This document shows positions 1 to 41,265 of a stretch of DNA of 41,265 nucleotides, one piece after another. The DNA is from a virus. Taxonomy: Duplodnaviria; Heunggongvirae; Uroviricota; Caudoviricetes. A program made the translations under genes and the position numbers. The notes beneath the pieces are model-generated. The model was not told the origin of the DNA, did not search any database, and saw nothing but the letters and a program-made list of their open reading frames with translations. The DNA is taken from IMG/VR virus record IMGVR_UViG_2521172717_000006. One strand, given 5' to 3'. Numbering within the stretch: the first letter of the stretch is position 1; every line of letters begins with the position of its first letter.

Positions 1-1158
1 ATGCTCACCGTTAAGCAGATTGAAGCAGCAAAGCCGAAAGAAAAACCATACCGCCTACTCGATGGTAATGGACTGTACCTTTATGTCCCTGTGTCAGGGA
101 AAAAGGTATGGCAGCTTCGCTACAAGATTGACGGTAAGGAGAAAATCCTGACCGTAGGAAAATACCCGCTTATGACTTTGCAAGAGGCAAGGGATAAAGC
201 ATGGACTGCGAGGAAAGACATCTCGGTCGGAATCGATCCGGTAAAAGCGAAAAAGGCTTCGTCTAACAACAATTCCTTTAGCGCCATTTACAAGGAATGG
301 TACGAGCACAAGAAGCAAGTCTGGTCTGTAGGGTATGCGACTGAACTTGCCAAAATGTTTGACGACGACATTTTACCTATCATTGGCGGCCTTGAAATTC
401 AGGATATTGAGCCGATGCAACTGCTGGAAGTAATCCGCAGGTTTGAAGATCGCGGTGCAATGGAGCGAGCCAACAAAGCCCGCAGAAGATGCGGCGAGGT
501 TTTCCGTTACGCTATTGTCACTGGTAGGGCTAAATATAACCCGGCACCTGACCTTGCTGACGCCATGAAGGGATACCGCAAGAAGAACTTCCCGTTTTTA
601 CCTGCCGACCAGATCCCGGCATTCAACAAAGCACTTGCAACATTTTCAGGAAGTATCGTATCGCTCATTGCGACCAAAGTTTTACGCTACACAGCCCTAA
701 GAACGAAAGAGCTTCGTTCCATGCAATGGAAGAACGTCGATTTTGAAAACAGGATTATCACCATCGACGCCAGTGTGATGAAGGGACGCAAAATTCATGT
801 TGTCCCGATGTCAGACCAGGTGGTTGAACTTCTCACTACGCTAAGCTCAATCACTAAACCAGTATCAGAGTTTGTTTTTGCCGGGCGAAACGATAAGAAA
901 AAGCCAATCTGCGAGAACGCGGTATTGCTTGTGATCAAACAAATCGGCTATGAGGGTCTGGAAAGCGGTCACGGATTCAGGCATGAATTCAGCACGATTA
1001 TGAACGAGCACGAATGGCCTGCTGACGCTATTGAAGTGCAACTTGCACATGCCAACGGCGGATCTGTGCGCGGGATTTACAACCATGCTCAGTATCTAGA
1101 TAAGCGCAGAGAAATGATGCAGTGGTGGGCTGACTGGATTGATGAAAAGGTGGAGTGA
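1..1158 (+). CDS. intS: Tyrosine site-specific integrase (P4/IntS-type), 385 aa
   Basis: N-terminal MLTVKQIEAAKPKEKPYRLLDGNGLYLYV typical of P4-family integrases; C-terminal R...HxxR...Y catalytic motifs (HGFRHEF, RGIYNHAQY) present; ORF begins at window position 1. Confidence 0.9.
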   Translation: MLTVKQIEAAKPKEKPYRLLDGNGLYLYVPVSGKKVWQLRYKIDGKEKILTVGKYPLMTLQEARDKAWTARKDISVGIDPVKAKKASSNNNSFSAIYKEWYEHKKQVWSVGYATELAKMFDDDILPIIGGLEIQDIEPMQLLEVIRRFEDRGAMERANKARRRCGEVFRYAIVTGRAKYNPAPDLADAMKGYRKKNFPFLPADQIPAFNKALATFSGSIVSLIATKVLRYTALRTKELRSMQWKNVDFENRIITIDASVMKGRKIHVVPMSDQVVELLTTLSSITKPVSEFVFAGRNDKKKPICENAVLLVIKQIGYEGLESGHGFRHEFSTIMNEHEWPADAIEVQLAHANGGSVRGIYNHAQYLDKRREMMQWWADWIDEKVE

Positions 1159-2563: not shown

Positions 2564-4762
2564 CTACGCTATATTAAGATTACCATATGTATTGTTTCCA
2601 AGACCATACCATGCCCAGTTTGTTCCTGATGCAGGAGTACCTGCATTGTGAATCATATCGCCTATATTTATCAGCACTTTCCCAGGGTATGTTGTAGTAG
2701 GAGCAGTGTCTATTCCAGCAGACACATCGGCAAAACGCCAACCACAGGAAACCATATCTGCGTTATCTCTAAATTTCTTAATTGAAAACGTGTATCTGTT
2801 TCCTCTATATATCATTCCAGCAAAACTAGGCCAGTCAATAAGTTGATTTACTGGTGAGTTTAAAGTGTTACTAAACTCATTATTTTCAATAACTGGTTCA
2901 TCGATACGCACACCCGAAGTTGATACTAGATATGTAGAATCAAAGTCGTTGTCAGAAATAATTGGAGCATAACCACCAATTTCACAACCTGTATTGCCAT
3001 GAACAAAATATGACTTATTCCCTCGGTATATAGATTTTCTCCATGTGGGCATTGTTACTTTTACGGCATCAGTTCTATCAAACTGGTTGTTTTCAATCAC
3101 AAGTCCATAACAATATGCAGACATCTGAGTTTCAGCATAATCATTTATGGCATAACCACCGCCTTTAAATGTATTTTTTGTTATTTTAATTCCATTGAAT
3201 GATGTTGAGTAGTCATTACTACCATTCCAGATAATTAGAATATGAGATGAAAATGTGCCATCCTCGTTCTGATCCCCAATGCTTATATTGCTATCAATAA
3301 CAACATTCTGCGCTGCAACACCGTTAGATTCACCTCCTATCTCAACGAATATTCCTTGTCCTGTTTTGATGTTATTCGATATAACTGCACCACCAGTCAC
3401 CCCCCAAGGAGTAATCCTAGACTGAATACTTATAGGGCTTATAAAGTGATTTCTTTCTGCAATTAAATATTTTGTTCTTGCTGAGCACGCAAAATCTTCA
3501 CCAAAAGTATGCCATTTTCTGCCTGTTCTGTACGTTTGGCAGTCAATCATCTTAGCAATTCCATTAAGATTTTTAGTGAAAAATGTATAATTTGTTACCA
3601 AATCAGTCCTTACATTGCTAAGAGTTATATCCTCATTTGGTATAGCACCGTCACCATCAGCATCTGCCATTACAAAGATTCTTGCAGCCAATACGTCAAT
3701 ATCATTAATAGATCCACTACTCCCCTCAAGTGCGAAACCAAACCAATTCTCTTGAGGGGTAAACGTGGTATCTGAAGGTCCAGTTGAAAAATTTGTGCAT
3801 GACTGGTTTAACTTTATACCATTAAATTTAAAGTTTTTGCAGTTGAATAAACCAAAGCAAACACGCTCAGCCTCACCATTTCCATCTGTATTTATATTTA
3901 CATCATTATCTGCGTAAACAAATAAATTATTTTTACCATTAATTACAATTGCTGTTTTACGTATAACACCTGCAGAGTCATGATATTGCTGGCTGATTTG
4001 GTAATTAAACTTTATCTCACCGGCGCTAAAACGTATTGCTCTAACACCACCAAATTTTGATATACAAGCGTTAACCGATGCCGTTGAATCATGCACTCCG
4101 TTAATATCATGTCCAGCCCAAACTGTATGTATGCCATCGAGCACACAATTCGAACGGATCCAGCAACCAGAGCCACCACCATCACTCTCACCAGTTCCCG
4201 CAAGGAAAGCAGCGAGCTCAGCATACGAACCATCCCACGGAACTGTGGGGCTAAATATGGTGATACCGTTGTGCTGAGATTTAGGCATGCTGGCATCCCA
4301 GTAAAACTGCCCGCCGCCAAAGTTGGTTCCTGGTACGTATCCAATTACATTTAATGTGTGATTCCCAGCAGGCTCGCTCATTAAGGTATGGATGTCAGGA
4401 ACATTCTCCATTCGCTGGCTAAACTGATCGGGATCATACTTCAGCACATTGGGAAAATAGAACTGCTGCGAACCATACGCATCATATACAGCCATGGAAT
4501 GGCCTTGCACAGTTACGAACTTGGCAATCTGTCCGTTATATACCGGATATCCGGCAGCGTTAATGATTATTGGTTGCGAAACAGGAACGTGAGAGCCGTC
4601 TTCGTTCTCTATATAAACCTGAATCTGGTTTTCTGAATTTACGGGGTCAGCGTCAATTTTACCGATATAAATTTTGCCATTGGCTACGGCTTTAAAAGAA
4701 CGAGCCATAGTGAAGAGTTGCGAAGGCATGCTTACCACAACATTTGCGGTGATATCTGACAT
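2564..4762 (-). CDS. Tailspike protein: P22/HK620-type N-terminal head-binding domain plus divergent beta-helix receptor-binding domain
   Basis: N-terminus [42 protein letters not shown]...[10 protein letters not shown] matches remembered P22 gp9/HK620 tailspike head-binding domain; remainder Gly/Asn/Ser/Thr-rich; start taken at internal ATG (M17 of track ORF) with GGAG RBS. Confidence 0.9.
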
Positions 4763-37961: not shown

Positions 37962-38762
37962 ATGACCATCCACTTTCACGGCAGCCCAATATGGGGGGAT
38001 GAGCATGCCCCTACAGATATGCTGATTAAAGCCCTTTACCGTGATGGTGGGGCTTTTGTTTCATTTGCCAGACCAGAGCAGATGAAAAAGATTGCCATGT
38101 TCCCTTGTGATATACGCCTTGATAACGGTGCTTTTAGCGACTGGATGAAAGCATTAAAGAAAGGCACTCCGGTAGACTGGAGTAAGAGACGAGCAAAATT
38201 CTACGACTTTGTTGGGAAGTGGTTCAGCAGAATTGAATGGTTTCTTATACCTGACGTTATCGAAGGGACAGAGGCAGAAAACGACGAGCAGATTGAGTTG
38301 GTTCCTGATTGGCTAAAATCAAAAGCGGTTCCGGTCTGGCATACCGACGAATCAATTGAACGTCTTTTACGCCTTTCTGGCAAATTTAAATGGGTGGCGA
38401 TTGGATGCTGCGGCCCACACAGGCACATACGCTCTAAATGGTGGGAACAGAGAATGGATGAAGTTTTCACTGAGCTTTATATCAATCGTAATTTGAAAGT
38501 GAAAATTCATGGTCTTCGAATGCTCGACGTGAGAGTTCTTGGTATGTATCCGTTCGCCAGTGCGGATTCTACTAATGTTGCTGTTAACGTACCGAAGACA
38601 GAGAAGCGATTTCCTGAGATTACCGACAAACTGGCACGTACAGCTGTACTTCGCGCAGCTATTGAAAAGGTGCACCCACCATCGATATCAGCATGGGTAG
38701 ACAGAAAGATGAGAGAGCCGGCGCAAGCCGGTTTTTTATTTGAATTCACCGACGCCGCTTAA
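37962..38762 (+). CDS. Hypothetical protein, 266 aa (function not recognised)
   Basis: ATG with RBS; conserved-looking Trp/His/Cys positions (IGCCGPHRH) but no family assignable by eye. Confidence 0.5.
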   Translation: MTIHFHGSPIWGDEHAPTDMLIKALYRDGGAFVSFARPEQMKKIAMFPCDIRLDNGAFSDWMKALKKGTPVDWSKRRAKFYDFVGKWFSRIEWFLIPDVIEGTEAENDEQIELVPDWLKSKAVPVWHTDESIERLLRLSGKFKWVAIGCCGPHRHIRSKWWEQRMDEVFTELYINRNLKVKIHGLRMLDVRVLGMYPFASADSTNVAVNVPKTEKRFPEITDKLARTAVLRAAIEKVHPPSISAWVDRKMREPAQAGFLFEFTDAA

Positions 38763-38819
38763 TGCGGGTTTCTTTTATCTGAACTCGCTACGGCGAGTTT
38801 TGTTTTATGGAGACAAGAA

Positions 38820-39164
38820 ATGTCAGATTTGGCTATGAAGATTTTGAAATGGCAATCGACTGGCGATGTCGGCATCAGTAGCGCAACTCTTGCATCGATC
38901 GCATGTGGACTGAAAAAGAATATCTATGGTCATTACTTCGGCGCTCCACATGACGCAGCAGACTTCCGGCGATGCGTTACACTTGTCGAGCAGATTCCAG
39001 AAATCAGAGATTCATTCGACAAGGTTGCAAAGCGCGCTCCGGCATTCAAAGGAATCCTCAACGAATGGGATTCTCTCGTTGCTCTGTTGAAGTCTGAAAT
39101 GAAGATACACGGAAACAAAGCACCAGAGACTTACAGAAGAATCAGCGAGCTACGCAATGACTAA
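38820..39164 (+). CDS. Hypothetical protein, 114 aa
   Basis: ATG with GGAGA RBS; last gene of pL operon before terminators. Confidence 0.5.
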   Translation: MSDLAMKILKWQSTGDVGISSATLASIACGLKKNIYGHYFGAPHDAADFRRCVTLVEQIPEIRDSFDKVAKRAPAFKGILNEWDSLVALLKSEMKIHGNKAPETYRRISELRND

Positions 39165-39167
39165 CCC

Positions 39168-39197
39168 GCCTCACACTCGATGAGGCATTTTCATTTA
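39168..39197 (+). terminator. Putative rho-independent terminator
   Basis: GCCTCA-cactcga-TGAGGC hairpin followed by T-rich ATTTTCATTTAT. Confidence 0.4.
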
Positions 39198-39221
39198 TCA
39201 AGATATCCAGACCTACCATCG

Positions 39222-39242
39222 CCGCATCAATGCGGTTTTTTT
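39222..39242 (+). terminator. Rho-independent terminator upstream of excisionase gene
   Basis: CCGCA-tcaa-TGCGG hairpin followed by seven T. Confidence 0.6.
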
Positions 39243-39252
39243 ATTACCTGAT

Positions 39253-39268
39253 TTGCAGGTTCGATTCC
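39253..39268 (+). other. tRNA T-arm-like fragment TTGCAGGTTCGATTCC in excisionase promoter region
   Basis: 16-nt match to the canonical GGTTCGATTCC T-loop context (as recalled for argW). Confidence 0.45.
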
Positions 39269-39287
39269 CTATTCGGAGATAGCACTC

Positions 39288-39488
39288 ATGCAACACGAAC
39301 TACAGCCTGATTCCCTGGTTGATTTGAAATTCATCATGGCTGATACTGGCTTCGGTAAAACCTTCATCTATGACCGGATTAAGTCCGGCGACCTGCCAAA
39401 AGCCAAAGTTATCCACGGGCGAGCAAGATGGTTATATCGTGACCATTGTGAATTCAAAAATAAGCTCTTAAGCCGCGCTAATGGGTAA
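39288..39488 (+). CDS. torI: Excisionase / recombination directionality factor, TorI-type (66 aa)
   Basis: Sequence MQHELQPDSLVDLKFIMADTGFGKTFIYDRIKSGDLPKAKVIHGRARWLYRDHCEFKNKLLSRANG recognised as TorI/AlpA-family winged-helix Xis. Confidence 0.9.
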   Translation: MQHELQPDSLVDLKFIMADTGFGKTFIYDRIKSGDLPKAKVIHGRARWLYRDHCEFKNKLLSRANG

Positions 39489-39561
39489 ATTAGCGGGTAA
39501 AATATTTCTCACATCTAAAAAATACCATTCTAATCAATCCCCTGCTGCCTCAAGTAGATGT

Positions 39562-39576
39562 CTGCAGGGGACACCA
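39562..39576 (+). other. Probable attR core: tRNA 3' acceptor end CTGCAGGGGACACCA
   Basis: 15-nt sequence ending in the characteristic ...GGGGACACCA tRNA 3' end, about 75 bp downstream of excisionase gene. Confidence 0.55.
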
Positions 39577-39964
39577 GATACCCTTCAAACGAAATCTACC
39601 TTCACCCCGTAAAAGATGGGTTTGGCAGCACACTTGCCTTATATCTACTCATTTTTACTGCAACAGGTTGAAATCTCAGCACTGTCAGAAAGCGCTGATG
39701 ACTAAACAGCCCTGGGCCGGGCGATGTAACCATCACACAGAATCCTGATAGCGAAATATGGCGTGACTCGATACTTCACTCCGCAATGCATTCCTTGATG
39801 AATTCGCAGGACCGTGATACACGGGACAGGTCACTGAATGACGACAATGTCCTGGAAATCAGCGAACCGCGCATCTGAAGTACATTTGAGCGACTGTACC
39901 AGAACATGAATGAGGCGTTTGGATTAGGCGATTATTAGCAGGGCTAAGCATTTTACTATTATTA

Positions 39965-40008
39965 TTTTCCGGTTGAGGGATATAGAGCTATCGACAACAA
40001 CCGGAAAA
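39965..40008. repeat. Perfect 11-bp inverted repeat TTTTCCGGTTG ... CAACCGGAAAA with 22-nt spacer, just downstream of permease gene
   Basis: Read directly; no T-run, so not a canonical intrinsic terminator. Confidence 0.4.
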
Positions 40009-40017
40009 AGTTTACGT

Positions 40018-41265
40018 CTATATTGCTGAAGGTACAGGCGTTTCCATAACTATTTGCTCGCGTTTTTTACTCAAGAAGAAAATGCCAAATAGCAACATCA
40101 GGCAGACAATACCCGAAATTGCGAAGAAAACTGTCTGGTAGCCTGCGTGGTCAAAGAGTATCCCAGTCGGCGTTGAAAGCAGCACAATCCCAAGCGAACT
40201 GGCAATTTGAAAACCAATCAGAAAGATCGTCGACGACAGGCGCTTATCAAAGTTTGCCACGCTGTATTTGAAGACGGATATGACACAAAGTGGAACCTCA
40301 ATGGCATGTAACAACTTCACTAATGAAATAATCCAGGGGTTAACGAACAGCGCGCAGGAAAGGATACGCAACGCCATAATCACAACTCCGATAAGTAATG
40401 CATTTTTTGGCCCTACCCGATTCACAAAGAAAGGAATAATCGCCATGCACAGCGCTTCGAGTACCACCTGGAATGAGTTGAGATAACCATACAGGCGCGT
40501 TCCTACATCGTGTGATTCGAATAAACCTGAATAAAAGACAGGAAAAAGTTGTTGATCAAAAATGTTATAGAAAGACCACGTCCCCACAATAAATATGACG
40601 AAAACCCAGAAGTTTCGATCCTTGAAAACTGCGATAAAATCCTCTTTTTTTACCCCTCCCGCATCTGCCGCTACGCACTGGTGATCCTTATCTTTAAAAC
40701 GCATGTTGATCATCATAAATACAGCGCCAAATAGCGAGACCAACCAGAAGTTGATATGGGGACTGATACTAAAAAATATGCCGGCAAAGAACGCGCCAAT
40801 AGCATAGCCAAAAGATCCCCAGGCGCGCGCTGTTCCATATTCGAAATGAAAATTTCGCGCCATTTTTTCGGTGAAGCTATCAAGCAAACCGCATCCCGCC
40901 AGATACCCCAAGCCAAAAAATAGCGCCCCCAGAATTAGACCTACAGAAAAATTGCTTTGCAGTAACGGTTCATAAACGTAAATCATAAACGGTCCGGTCA
41001 AGACCAGGATGAAACTCATACACCAGATGAGCGGTTTCTTCAGACCGAGTTTATCCTGAACGATGCCGTAGAACATCATAAATAGAATGCTGGTAAACTG
41101 GTTGACCGAATAAAGTGTACCTAATTCCGTCCCTGTCAACCCTAGATGTCCTTTCAGCCAAATAGCGTATAACGACCACCACAGCGACCAGGAAATAAAA
41201 AAGAGAAATGAGTAACTGGATGCAAAACGATAGTACGCATTTCTGAATGGAATATTCAGTGCCAT
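40018..41265 (-). CDS. cscB: LacY-family oligosaccharide:H+ symporter, sucrose permease CscB-like (chromosomal)
   Basis: 415 aa; N-terminus MALNIPFRNAYYRFASSYSFLFFISWSLWWSLYAIWLKGHLGL recognised as CscB / LacY-like 12-TM permease; ORF start coincides with window end. Confidence 0.85.
   Translation of the reverse strand: MALNIPFRNAYYRFASSYSFLFFISWSLWWSLYAIWLKGHLGLTGTELGTLYSVNQFTSILFMMFYGIVQDKLGLKKPLIWCMSFILVLTGPFMIYVYEPLLQSNFSVGLILGALFFGLGYLAGCGLLDSFTEKMARNFHFEYGTARAWGSFGYAIGAFFAGIFFSISPHINFWLVSLFGAVFMMINMRFKDKDHQCVAADAGGVKKEDFIAVFKDRNFWVFVIFIVGTWSFYNIFDQQLFPVFYSGLFESHDVGTRLYGYLNSFQVVLEALCMAIIPFFVNRVGPKNALLIGVVIMALRILSCALFVNPWIISLVKLLHAIEVPLCVISVFKYSVANFDKRLSSTIFLIGFQIASSLGIVLLSTPTGILFDHAGYQTVFFAISGIVCLMLLFGIFFLSKKREQIVMETPVPSAI

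What the first reader, a model, noticed from the sequence alone, without database searches (positions are those of the whole stretch)
39168..39576. Split tRNA-derived sequences flanking torI, with int and xis at opposite prophage ends
Integrase is the first gene of the window, while the TorI-type excisionase is the last phage gene about 39 kb away, the KplE1/CPS-53-style arrangement in which the two recombination genes straddle the attachment site. A 15-nt tRNA 3'-end sequence (CTGCAGGGGACACCA) lies about 75 bp downstream of torI and is the likely attR core. A second 16-nt tRNA T-arm-like fragment (TTGCAGGTTCGATTCC) lies upstream of torI, so the two halves of a tRNA 3' region are separated by the excisionase gene. 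That may be a relic of an earlier att site or of module exchange at this locus. Two tandem terminators immediately upstream would insulate torI from pL readthrough.
Basis: partly seen in the sequence, partly recalled or inferred. Interest (0 to 1): 0.55.

Follow-up and report, generated by a model that had tools for sequence, protein, structure and literature searches.

The report
Conserved tRNA T-loop box before torI
The right end of this argW prophage is an ordinary KplE1/HK620-type attachment site, but the tRNA-like 16-mer in front of the excisionase gene turns out to be an old, strongly conserved box found across this family of recombination modules, probably controlling excisionase expression rather than marking a split att site.

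Summary
Both sequences are real. CTGCAGGGGACACCA (39562-39576) is the attR core: empty-site E. coli strains align from exactly 39562, and the same 15-mer ends argW at attL in an identical genome. TTGCAGGTTCGATTCC (39253-39268) is a 16/16 match to the argW bases just 5' of that core. The int/xis-straddling layout is the published KplE1/HK620/Sf6 (IntS-TorI) module.

The "two halves split by torI" reading is not supported as stated. K-12 KplE1, HK620 and Sf6 carry the same 16-mer. A shorter box, GTTCGATTCC(C), sits 28-29 nt upstream of the excisionase ATG in about 70% of diverged modules from at least seven genera. Pairwise identity is 0.93 for the box against 0.58 at xis third codon positions. 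In relatives the site next to the core is also T-loop-like (aTTCGATGTa), so torI is flanked by two overlapping T-loop copies. The box lies outside the published 135-bp functional attR.

It is therefore a tRNA-derived element under selection. My best guess, at low confidence, is that it forms the 5' arm of a leader hairpin that covers the torI ribosome-binding site. An IntS half-site is the main rival. An RDF operator is disfavoured, and the annotated cII/pI promoter lacks support.

The parts
1..1158 (+). intS, a P4-type tyrosine integrase and the first prophage gene. attL and argW lie just left of the window.
   Evidence: Pfam Arm-DNA-bind_3, Phage_int_M and Phage_integrase. Annotated 'prophage integrase IntS' in the identical genome, with tRNA-Arg 162 bp upstream.
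39168..39196 (+). First terminator-like hairpin (stem 39168-39186, T-rich tail). This sequence is shared with lambdoid phages 434, HK022 and Emek.
   Evidence: Scan; alignment with 434, HK022, K-12 and Emek.
39221..39243 (+). Intrinsic terminator (stem 39221-39236 plus a T run), homologous to t'-I of phage 434. It marks the end of the generic pL-operon sequence. Homology to 434 and HK022 stops at about 39241.
39253..39268 (+). 16-mer TTGCAGGTTCGATTCC, identical to argW nt 46-61 (T-stem 5' strand, T-loop and 2 nt).
   Evidence: The same 16-mer is present in K-12 KplE1, HK620 and 80 IMG/VR E. coli prophages.
39259..39269 (+). Family-wide conserved T-loop box GTTCGATTCCC, 29 nt upstream of the torI ATG.
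   Evidence: Box pairwise identity is 0.93, against 0.58 for xis third positions and 0.3-0.4 for the upstream flank.
39275..39278 (+). Shine-Dalgarno GGAG of torI, the predicted pairing partner of the box.
   Evidence: Sequence; folding; pair counts.
39288..39488 (+). torI, the recombination directionality factor (excisionase).
   Evidence: Matches PDB 1Z4H over all 66 residues, E 6.6e-43. Annotated torI in RefSeq genomes.
39483..39501 (+). Two IntS arm-type sites (GGGTAAA at 39483 and 39495) at the torI 3' end. This is the start of the published minimal attR.
   Evidence: Motif positions. TAAA-containing arm-type sites and the attR-IHF2 primer position are from PMC2951348 and PMC3509656.
39554..39561 (+). 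Inferred IntS core-type site C (GTAGATGT) abutting the core. Relatives have TTCGATGT here, which is T-loop-like.
   Evidence: Comparison of attP and attR in relatives. The inverted repeat GATGTC-TGCAGGG-GACACC is read directly from the sequence. The assignment is an inference.
39562..39576 (+). attR core CTGCAGGGGACACCA, the displaced original 3' end of argW. Host DNA begins inside or after it.
   Evidence: Empty-site strains align from 39562. The same 15-mer ends argW at attL. Published core is CTGCAGGGGACACCAT (PMC2951348).
39481..39612 (+). Small ORF, the counterpart of HK620 hkaB / Sf6 gene 17, that runs across the core into host DNA.
   Evidence: ORF list. HK620 and Sf6 annotate hkaB / gene 17 at the equivalent position.
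40018..41265 (-). Host gene cscB-like LacY-family oligosaccharide permease. It is the right chromosomal flank, where K-12 has dsdC.
   Evidence: Pfam LacY_symp, E 1.7e-193. The empty-site strain has the same gene next to argW.

Best explanation
Window 39168-39576 is the attR end of a P22/Sf6/HK620-like prophage integrated in argW through the known IntS-TorI (KplE1-type) module. In this module attP lies between the excisionase and integrase genes.

Shown:
- The 15-mer is the crossover core at attR.
- The 16-mer is not the missing half of a split att site. It is the E. coli form of a conserved T-loop-like box, GTTCGATTCC(C), placed 28-29 nt upstream of the excisionase start codon in most members of this module family.
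- The box lies outside the minimal attR.
- It is more conserved than the excisionase coding sequence.

Inferred:
- The box descends from an old second copy of the argW T-arm. E. coli keeps 5' tRNA identity (TTGCAG) and Serratia and Pantoea keep 3' identity (TG). The first T-loop-like copy is the integrase core-type site next to the core.
- The box was then kept because it works in cis on torI expression.

Most likely mechanism (low confidence): on read-through transcripts from pL, the box is the 5' arm of an imperfect leader hairpin, GGUU-CG-AUUCC(C)/loop/GGAG(A)U-NN-AACC. This hairpin covers the Shine-Dalgarno sequence and damps TorI translation, so excision and repression of intS are not triggered by low-level read-through.
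For: Core and layout; literature.

Conservation:
- The box is in K-12, HK620, Sf6 and 80 E. coli viral contigs.
- It is in Erwinia, Salmonella, Serratia, Citrobacter, Pantoea and Edwardsiella modules and in phiEt88, whose RDF is only 39% identical.
- Among representatives chosen only by xis divergence, 14 of 23 TorI-like and 21 of 27 Emek-like modules carry it. Pairwise identity is 0.93, against 0.58 at xis third positions and 0.85 at first and second positions.
- Spacing to the ATG is 28-29 nt in 24 of 28 clusters.

Outside attR: the 135-bp attR suffices for excision in vitro.

Overlapping copies: C sites read aTTCGATGTa|TGCAGG in relatives.

Hairpin:
- The same architecture is the minimum-free-energy fold in about 20 of 26 lineages, with P(SD paired) 0.75-1.0.
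- 85% of cells are pairable, against 64% or less for slid registers.
- The only variable stretch is the 5-nt loop, closed by a conserved C-G pair.
- The box variants seen (C9T, C9A, C11T) fall on a mismatch position or keep a wobble pair.
- phiEt88 has a different SD-ATG spacer but keeps AACC opposite GGUU.
- Box-less lineages also lack AACC.
Against: - No covariation supports the hairpin. It scores no better than column shuffles, and RNAalifold predicts nothing.
- Stability is marginal: mean z is -0.83 over related sequences. The window's own version gives z -0.7 on the longer stretches. On the short leader it gives z +0.66 and folds in a different register.
- The hairpin does not explain the invariant C4 and G5, or why the 5' arm must equal a tRNA T-loop.
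- Some successful lineages have lost the box through a precise 25-nt absence, so it is dispensable.
- No expression data were available. The Menouni 2013 paper on torI transcription is not held in the library.
Confidence: 0.4

Rival explanations
1. IntS half-site or pseudo-core. The box equals the B half-site of attB (GTTCGATTCC, immediately left of the inferred 7-bp overlap TGCAGGG). It binds the IntS core-binding domain near the torI start without recombining. It could act as a repressor site or decoy, or as an accessory site for attP function.
For: - The conserved block ends exactly where the attB overlap region would begin.
- attB is the one feature constant across all clades, which differ in arm-type sites (GGGTAAA versus GGGCATAA) and in RDF-site type.
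- C sites of relatives share TTCGAT with the box.
- The rare torI deletion in F404 and L120 joins the box plus 7 nt to the right half of the true core, in register. That is the product expected of Int-type recombination between two such sites.
Against: - Functional C sites vary far more (TAGATGT, TAGGTGT, GTGATGT) than the box does, so IntS binding alone does not demand this invariance.
- The spacing from the box to GAGATA is not constant, ranging from 5 to 14 nt.
- The in-register GGA is absent in phiEt88.
- The overlaps CTATTCG and TGCAGGG are heterologous.
- The F404-type junction is found in 1 of 5,426 genomes plus one viral contig, and a 3-nt GGA microhomology explains it equally well.
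Confidence: 0.2
2. Neutral fossil, closest to the first reader's idea. The 16-mer is a relic of an earlier att site, or of the event that placed torI next to attP, and has no present function.
For: - The 16-mer is a 16/16 match contiguous with the core in argW.
- It sits at the left boundary of the mobile module, right after the terminator, where two alternative upstream contexts join.
- Different lineages keep different tRNA flanks: TTGCAG in E. coli, CCTG in Serratia.
- The box can be lost.
Against: - Box identity is 0.93, against 0.58 at synonymous-type positions and 0.3-0.4 in the adjacent non-coding flank, across clades whose RDFs are 39-50% identical.
- The distance to the ATG is fixed.
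- Tandem duplicates occur in Erwinia lineages.
- It is not a split: the C site is a second, overlapping T-loop-like copy.
Confidence: 0.15
3. RDF operator. The box contains GTTCG, the experimentally defined TorI recognition pentamer, so TorI binds upstream of its own gene and autoregulates.
For: - TorI sites on attL are GTTCG, GATCG and GTCCG (PMC2951348).
- By my reading, the 8-nt site CAGTTCGY resembles CAGGTTCGA.
- A second GTTCG or GTCCG lies 12 nt downstream in Pantoea stewartii and Edwardsiella, and tandem boxes occur in Erwinia.
Against: - Four lineages whose P' arms hold no GTTCG-type repeat, and have (A/G)TTACC repeats instead, keep the box unchanged: phiEt88, L207, L213, L214.
- Conservation extends through ATTCC, which attL TorI sites do not share.
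- Spacings of 12, 13 and 16 nt are not helically phased as those in attL are (10 and 20).
- According to my recollection of the Panis 2007 and 2010 papers, which I did not re-read, TorI binding was mapped to attL only.
Confidence: 0.08
4. cII-dependent pI-type promoter, as annotated in the HK620 and Sf6 GenBank records. TTGC repeats overlapping the 16-mer would recruit cII to start an int-only transcript at or inside torI.
For: - HK620 annotates 'cII protein' binding at TTGCCTGATTTGC and a 'phage integration' promoter over this stretch. Sf6 annotates pI by homology.
- The position is analogous to lambda pI, just upstream of xis.
Against: - The repeat spacing is N5, not the N6 of lambda and P22 sites (from my own knowledge).
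- The window has TTAC, not TTGC, in the first repeat.
- The TTGC repeats and any -10 are not conserved outside E. coli, whereas the box, which would be mere spacer, is conserved.
- The promoter scan finds nothing.
- intS has its own mapped promoter.
Confidence: 0.07

Closest known systems
KplE1 (CPS-53) / HK620 / Sf6 IntS-TorI site-specific recombination module at argW
   Same: - Same integrase family and an identical TorI protein.
- Same core, CTGCAGGGGACACCA.
- Same order, torI-attP-intS, so that int and RDF end up at opposite prophage ends.
- Same arm-type GGGTAAA sites at the torI 3' end.
- 94-97% DNA identity over 39232-39576.
   Different: Nothing essential differs. The core identity is 15 nt here rather than 16, because the right flank is the csc side (G after CCA) rather than the K-12 dsdC side. 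The upstream context is the 434/HK022-type t'I region rather than the HK620 hkaD end.
Lambda pI / cII-activated integrase promoter upstream of xis
   Same: The position is the same, immediately upstream of the excisionase start and downstream of t'I. HK620 and Sf6 annotate this stretch as such a promoter.
   Different: TTGC-N5-TTGC (TTAC-N5-TTGC in the window) replaces TTGC-N6-TTGC. There is no usable -10. The conserved part is the T-loop box, not the TTGC repeats.
tRNA-derived identity blocks of P4-type integrase attP sites (tRNA 3'-end integration, Reiter 1989 / Williams 2002 classes; recalled from memory)
   Same: Both the core and the adjacent C site are copies of the argW 3' end and T-loop. 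The box is a further copy of the T-arm.
   Different: The box lies about 300 bp from the crossover. It is separated from the crossover by a gene, sits outside the functional attR, and is more conserved than the real integrase sites.
Shine-Dalgarno-occluding leader hairpins that limit translation (general bacterial and phage mechanism)
   Same: A pyrimidine stretch (UUCC) 5-7 nt upstream pairs with GGAG, with an outer stem just before the AUG. This fold is predicted in most lineages.
   Different: There is no covariation and stability is marginal. The 5' arm is a tRNA T-loop sequence, which such hairpins do not need.

Membership tests
KplE1/HK620/Sf6-type IntS-TorI recombination module | P4-type tyrosine integrase with an N-terminal arm-binding domain, transcribed away from the tRNA at attL | tested here: met
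   Pfam Arm-DNA-bind_3, Phage_int_M and Phage_integrase on window 1-1155. argW lies 162 bp upstream in the same orientation in the identical genome.
KplE1/HK620/Sf6-type IntS-TorI recombination module | TorI-type winged-helix RDF as the last prophage gene, reading toward attR | tested here: met
   The product of 39288-39488 matches PDB 1Z4H over all 66 residues. The core lies 73 nt downstream.
KplE1/HK620/Sf6-type IntS-TorI recombination module | Core CTGCAGGGGACACCA(T), the 3' end of argW, duplicated at both prophage ends | tested here: met
   attR copy at 39562-39576; attL copy in L001; single copy at the empty site L003; empty-site alignments start at 39562.
KplE1/HK620/Sf6-type IntS-TorI recombination module | Arm-type IntS sites (TAAA motif) on attR, and TorI sites (GTTCG, GTCCG, GATCG) on attL overlapping PintS | tested here: met
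   Sequence motifs only. GGGTAAA at 39483 and 39495. The attL of L001 holds caGTTCG, caGTCCG, caGTTCG, tgGTTCG and caGATCG before TTGACA. The motifs are as published. Protein binding was not testable.
KplE1/HK620/Sf6-type IntS-TorI recombination module | IntS + TorI + IHF-dependent excision regenerating attP and attB | not testable with these tools
   Needs PCR for attP and attB junctions after induction or TorI overproduction.
cII-activated pI-type promoter | TTGC-N6-TTGC repeats flanking a -35, with a -10 about 13 nt downstream | tested here: not met
   The window has TTAC-N5-TTGC and HK620 has TTGC-N5-TTGC. No promoter-like site is found in 38600-39700. The repeats are absent outside E. coli.
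tRNA gene or pseudogene | Cloverleaf detectable by ARAGORN or the Rfam tRNA model | tested here: not met
   No tRNA in the window. No tRNA hit even at E up to 10 in 38600-39800. Only 16 nt and 15 nt of argW are present.
Structured cis-regulatory RNA leader | Conserved secondary structure supported by covariation | tested here: inconclusive
   The same hairpin is the minimum-free-energy fold in about 20 of 26 lineages, and 85% of cells are pairable against 64% or less when slid. There is no covariation, no RNAalifold consensus, and z-scores are weak.
Intrinsic terminators upstream of torI (lambdoid t'I region) | G+C-rich hairpin followed by a T run, homologous to an annotated terminator | tested here: met
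   Hairpins at 39168-39186 and 39221-39236. The second aligns with 434 't'-I'. Termination activity was not testable.

The most novel reading that the evidence does not exclude
A fragment of the target tRNA gene (the argW T-loop) was copied into the recombination module long ago. It has since been co-opted as the control element of the excisionase gene, either as an SD-occluding leader or as an integrase 'attB half-site' decoy. Under this reading, excision control in this widespread Enterobacterales module family runs through an att-derived sequence that has been overlooked. It is currently annotated, if at all, as a putative cII/pI promoter.
Probability: 0.45. Interest if true: 0.45.

Novelty: new member of a known kind. 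Interest (0 to 1): 0.32.

Why it matters
The layout and the attR core are textbook for this family and add nothing new. What is new is modest. It is a short tRNA-T-loop-identical box at a fixed place in front of the RDF gene. It is conserved above coding-sequence level across genera and across clades that differ in arm-type and RDF sites. As far as the literature I could search shows, it has not been described as such.

In this module the integrase is made constitutively, and excision is decided by RDF expression alone (PMC2951348). A cis-element at the RDF start is therefore a plausible missing piece of how prophage stability is set, and it is cheap to test in K-12 KplE1. It also corrects a database annotation, the cII/pI promoter, that comparative data do not support.

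Tried and rejected
1. torI inserted into a longer ancestral identity block (a true split). Rejected because relatives keep a T-loop-like C site next to the core, so the two tRNA-like pieces overlap.
2. A deletion scar argW-5'/16-mer/torI left by recombination between the two 16-mers. No such junction exists in 5,426 E. coli genomes.
3. Recurrent site-specific torI deletion. The F404 junction is unique among complete genomes, plus one IMG/VR contig in a different downstream context. That is too rare to separate Int-mediated recombination from microhomology.
4. N-terminal extension of TorI through the box. The frame is open in E. coli and Emek but shifted in L015 and Edwardsiella, so it is not coding (read).
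5. T-arm hairpin in RNA (CAGG...CCTG). It is present only in Serratia, Edwardsiella and P. stewartii, so it is not conserved (read).
6. Sigma-70 promoter at the box. None was found.
7. Rfam families. Nothing reached threshold.
8. RDF operator. Weakened by lineages whose P' arms have TTACC-type repeats but which keep the box.
9. In-register pseudo-core (box-N7-GAGATA). The spacing varies and it fails in phiEt88.
10. Covariation between the box and the target tRNA could not be tested. Every module found targets the same tRNA-Arg(CCU) 3' end. Distant homologues (L034-L037, Pseudomonas F116-like) have other layouts.
11. The Menouni 2013 PNAS paper on torI transcription could not be read.

Full report
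**What is in the window.** The window starts at the ATG of a P4-type tyrosine integrase (1-1158; Arm-DNA-bind_3, Phage_int_M and Phage_integrase domains). Next come an acyltransferase and a P22-type tailspike with a head-binding domain. The leftward-reading ORF block that follows is laid out like P22-family structural, lysis and replication genes. From about 29.7 kb a rightward early-left block ends at a 66-codon gene at 39288-39488 (ORF map; gene identities in these two blocks are inferred from layout, not tested). That gene's product matches PDB 1Z4H, 'Tor inhibition protein' (TorI), over all 66 residues at E 6.6e-43. The right end of the window holds a LacY-family permease on the minus strand (40018-41265).

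**The observation.** CTGCAGGGGACACCA occurs once, at 39562-39576. TTGCAGGTTCGATTCC occurs once exactly, at 39253-39268, 19 nt before the torI ATG. A genome identical over 39168-39700 (NZ_CP026085.1) has tRNA-Arg (argW) 162 bp left of intS, ending ...GGGCTAATTGCAGGTTCGATTCCTGCAGGGGACACCA|t. The 16-mer is argW nt 46-61 and the 15-mer is nt 61-75, so they are contiguous in the tRNA. No other argW match in the window exceeds chance. The expectation for a 16-nt match is about 1e-3.

Strains with an empty site carry argW followed directly by the sequence found from window 39577 on. Their megablast alignments to the window begin exactly at 39562. This confirms the observation and identifies the 15-mer as the attR core. 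It matches the published KplE1 core CTGCAGGGGACACCAT (PMC2951348) and the Kapi1, Sf6 and HK620 att site (PMC8787464).

**Already known.** The layout, with attP between the RDF and integrase genes so that they end up at opposite prophage ends, is the defining and published feature of the KplE1/HK620/Sf6 module. The window is 94-97% identical to K-12 KplE1, HK620 and Sf6 over 39232-39576.

The two hairpins upstream are terminator-like. The second aligns with the annotated t'-I terminator of phage 434. Homology to 434 and HK022 ends at its T run, about 39241, where those phages continue with lambda-type xis.

**The 16-mer is family-wide, not local.** K-12 KplE1 has the identical 16-mer in the identical place. 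So do HK620 and 80 E. coli viral contigs. In those contigs two alternative upstream contexts both join the module at the same terminator T run, followed by ATT(G/A)CCTGATTTGCAGG....

I collected more distant modules from several sources:
- annotated phages;
- one genome per species;
- IMG/VR, seeded with divergent RDFs.

A shorter box, GTTCGATTCC(C), recurs upstream of the RDF start in Erwinia (in tandem copies), Salmonella (Emek and g341c type, RDF about 50% identical), Serratia, Citrobacter, Pantoea and Edwardsiella. It also recurs in Erwinia phage phiEt88, whose RDF is 39% identical.

Taking representatives only by xis DNA divergence (below 95%), 14 of 23 TorI-like and 21 of 27 Emek-like modules carry the box with at most 1-3 mismatches. 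Four have a precise 25-nt absence (..ATTGCCTG|GAGATA..). The rest have coding DNA abutting xis.

Among box carriers, pairwise identity is as follows:
- the 11-mer box: 0.93;
- xis third codon positions: 0.58-0.59;
- xis first and second positions: 0.84-0.87;
- the upstream flank: 0.30-0.42.

The box starts 28-29 nt before the ATG in 24 of 28 clusters. This is purifying selection on a positioned element, not a decaying relic.

**Not two halves of one tRNA end.** In relatives, the sequence directly left of the core is aTTCGATGTa|TGCAGGGGACACCA. That is 8 of 11 identical to the T-loop side of argW. The E. coli form GTAGATGT is a further diverged version.

Read directly from the sequence, the core has the usual tyrosine-recombinase shape. 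An inverted repeat, GATGTC and GACACC, flanks a 7-bp TGCAGGG. attR junctions with variant host flanks place the crossover within TGCAGGGGACA.

The module therefore holds two overlapping T-loop-like copies, flanking torI and the P arm: the box, and the C site. A tRNA origin of the box is likely, because lineages retain different tRNA flanks (TTGCAG in E. coli, CCTG in Serratia). The published in vitro attR of 135 bp begins at the torI 3' end, so the box is not needed for excisive recombination (PMC3509656).

**What the box might do.**

*(a) RDF operator.* GTTCG is the published TorI pentamer, and some lineages have a second GTTCG or GTCCG nearby. However, four lineages whose P' arms contain no GTTCG-type repeat, and carry (A/G)TTACC repeats instead, keep the box unchanged. 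Conservation also extends through ATTCC. This reading is disfavoured.

*(b) cII/pI promoter.* HK620 and Sf6 annotate this stretch as a cII-dependent pI promoter. The repeats are TTGC-N5-TTGC, or TTAC-N5-TTGC in the window. They are absent outside E. coli, no promoter-like site is found, and the conserved part would be only spacer.

*(c) IntS half-site.* The box equals the attB half-site up to the overlap boundary, and attB is the one constant across clades. Against this, the real C sites are much more variable than the box.

*(d) Leader hairpin.* The hairpin GGUU-CG-AUUCC(C)/5-nt loop/GGAG(A)U-NN-AACC is the predicted fold in about 20 of 26 lineages, with the SD paired at probability 0.75-1.0.
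- Its register beats slid controls, 85% against 64% or less.
- The only freely varying stretch is the loop.
- The box variants seen fall on a mismatch position or keep a wobble pair.
- phiEt88 keeps AACC opposite GGUU despite a different spacer.
- Against it, there is no covariation and stability is marginal. The window's version gives z -0.7 on the longer stretches and z +0.66 on the short leader; the mean over lineages is -0.83.
- It leaves C4, G5 and the T-loop identity unexplained.

I rank (d) first and (c) second, both at low confidence. In this module IntS is constitutive and excision is decided by RDF expression, which makes a damping element at the RDF start biologically sensible. That last step is inference.

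**Side results.** E. coli F404 and one IMG/VR contig have lost torI through a deletion joining box-CTATTC-GGA to CACCA of the core. The junction is in register with the tRNA. The downstream contexts differ: dsdC in F404, and another P4-type integrase island in the contig. This fits either rare Int-type recombination between the box region and the core, or slippage on the GGA microhomology. No genome shows the converse scar, argW-5'/16-mer/torI.

**Verdict.** The attR core and the KplE1-type arrangement are confirmed and already known. The split-tRNA and local-relic reading is replaced by a conserved, tRNA-derived box in the RDF leader whose function is unresolved. Novelty is modest.

Noticed in passing
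L004 (E. coli F404, NZ_OY754364.1) 3019-3072; L120 (IMGVR_UViG_2778261619_000010) 4527-4551 (-): Two lambdoid argW prophages have lost torI through the same deletion. The junction is ..GGTTCGATTCCCTATTCGG|ACACCA.., in register with the argW 3' end. Only 1 of 5,426 complete E. coli genomes carries it. The downstream contexts differ (dsdC versus another P4-type integrase island). The attR core is destroyed, so these prophages should be locked in.
   Followed up: partly
window 39170-39225: In one frame the region of the two hairpins reads LTLDEAFSFIKISRPTI with no start codon. The K-12 version, with its in-frame TGA replaced by R, hits Pfam HTH_17 (excisionase-type HTH) at E 4e-4, below threshold. 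Emek has a 37-codon ORF here. This may be a fossil of an older excisionase gene shared by 434, HK022 and Stx phages, or it may be coincidence.
   Followed up: partly
window 39168-39244: The double-hairpin stretch gives weak sub-threshold Rfam matches to the sRNAs isrK and ncS025 (E about 4, 14-17 bits against gathering scores of 46-50). The stretch is conserved at over 90% in many lambdoid and Stx phages upstream of their xis and int genes.
   Followed up: no
window 39481-39612: A 43-codon ORF, the counterpart of HK620 hkaB / Sf6 gene 17, starts inside the torI 3' end and runs across the att core into host DNA. Its C-terminus therefore differs between the prophage and the excised phage.
   Followed up: no
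L018, L216, L219, L221, L223-L226 (upstream of xis): A precise 25-nt absence of the box (..TTATTGCCTG|GAGATAATGAT-ATG) occurs in both the TorI-like and Emek-like clades. It is explainable by deletion between CCTGG and ACCGG in the Citrobacter-type leader. These lineages also lack the AACC before the ATG.
   Followed up: partly
L227 (phiEt88), L207, L213, L214: P' arms between the core and int: The repeats at the positions of the TorI sites are (A/G)TTACC-type instead of GTTCG-type. Arm-type sites are GGGCATA-type instead of GGGTAAA-type. This suggests switches of RDF and integrase arm specificity within one module family that keeps the same attB.
   Followed up: partly
L005 (Midgardsormr38) 2470-2530; L139, L142, L136: Erwinia and related lineages carry two tandem copies of the T-loop box (CAGGTTCGATTCCCGTCAGGTTCGATTCCC, 16-nt period; 13-nt period in L136).
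   Followed up: no
NZ_CP026085.1 (L001) versus K-12 (L002): The RefSeq genome labelled 'DH5alpha' (4.83 Mb) carries this full-length P22-like prophage and the csc-side flank. True K-12 has the 10-kb KplE1 remnant and dsdC. The strain label is probably wrong.
   Followed up: no
window 39577-41265: The right flank is the cscB (sucrose/oligosaccharide permease) side of the variable argW-dsdCXA island, not dsdC as in K-12. As a result the att identity is 15 nt here (G after CCA) rather than 16.
   Followed up: yes
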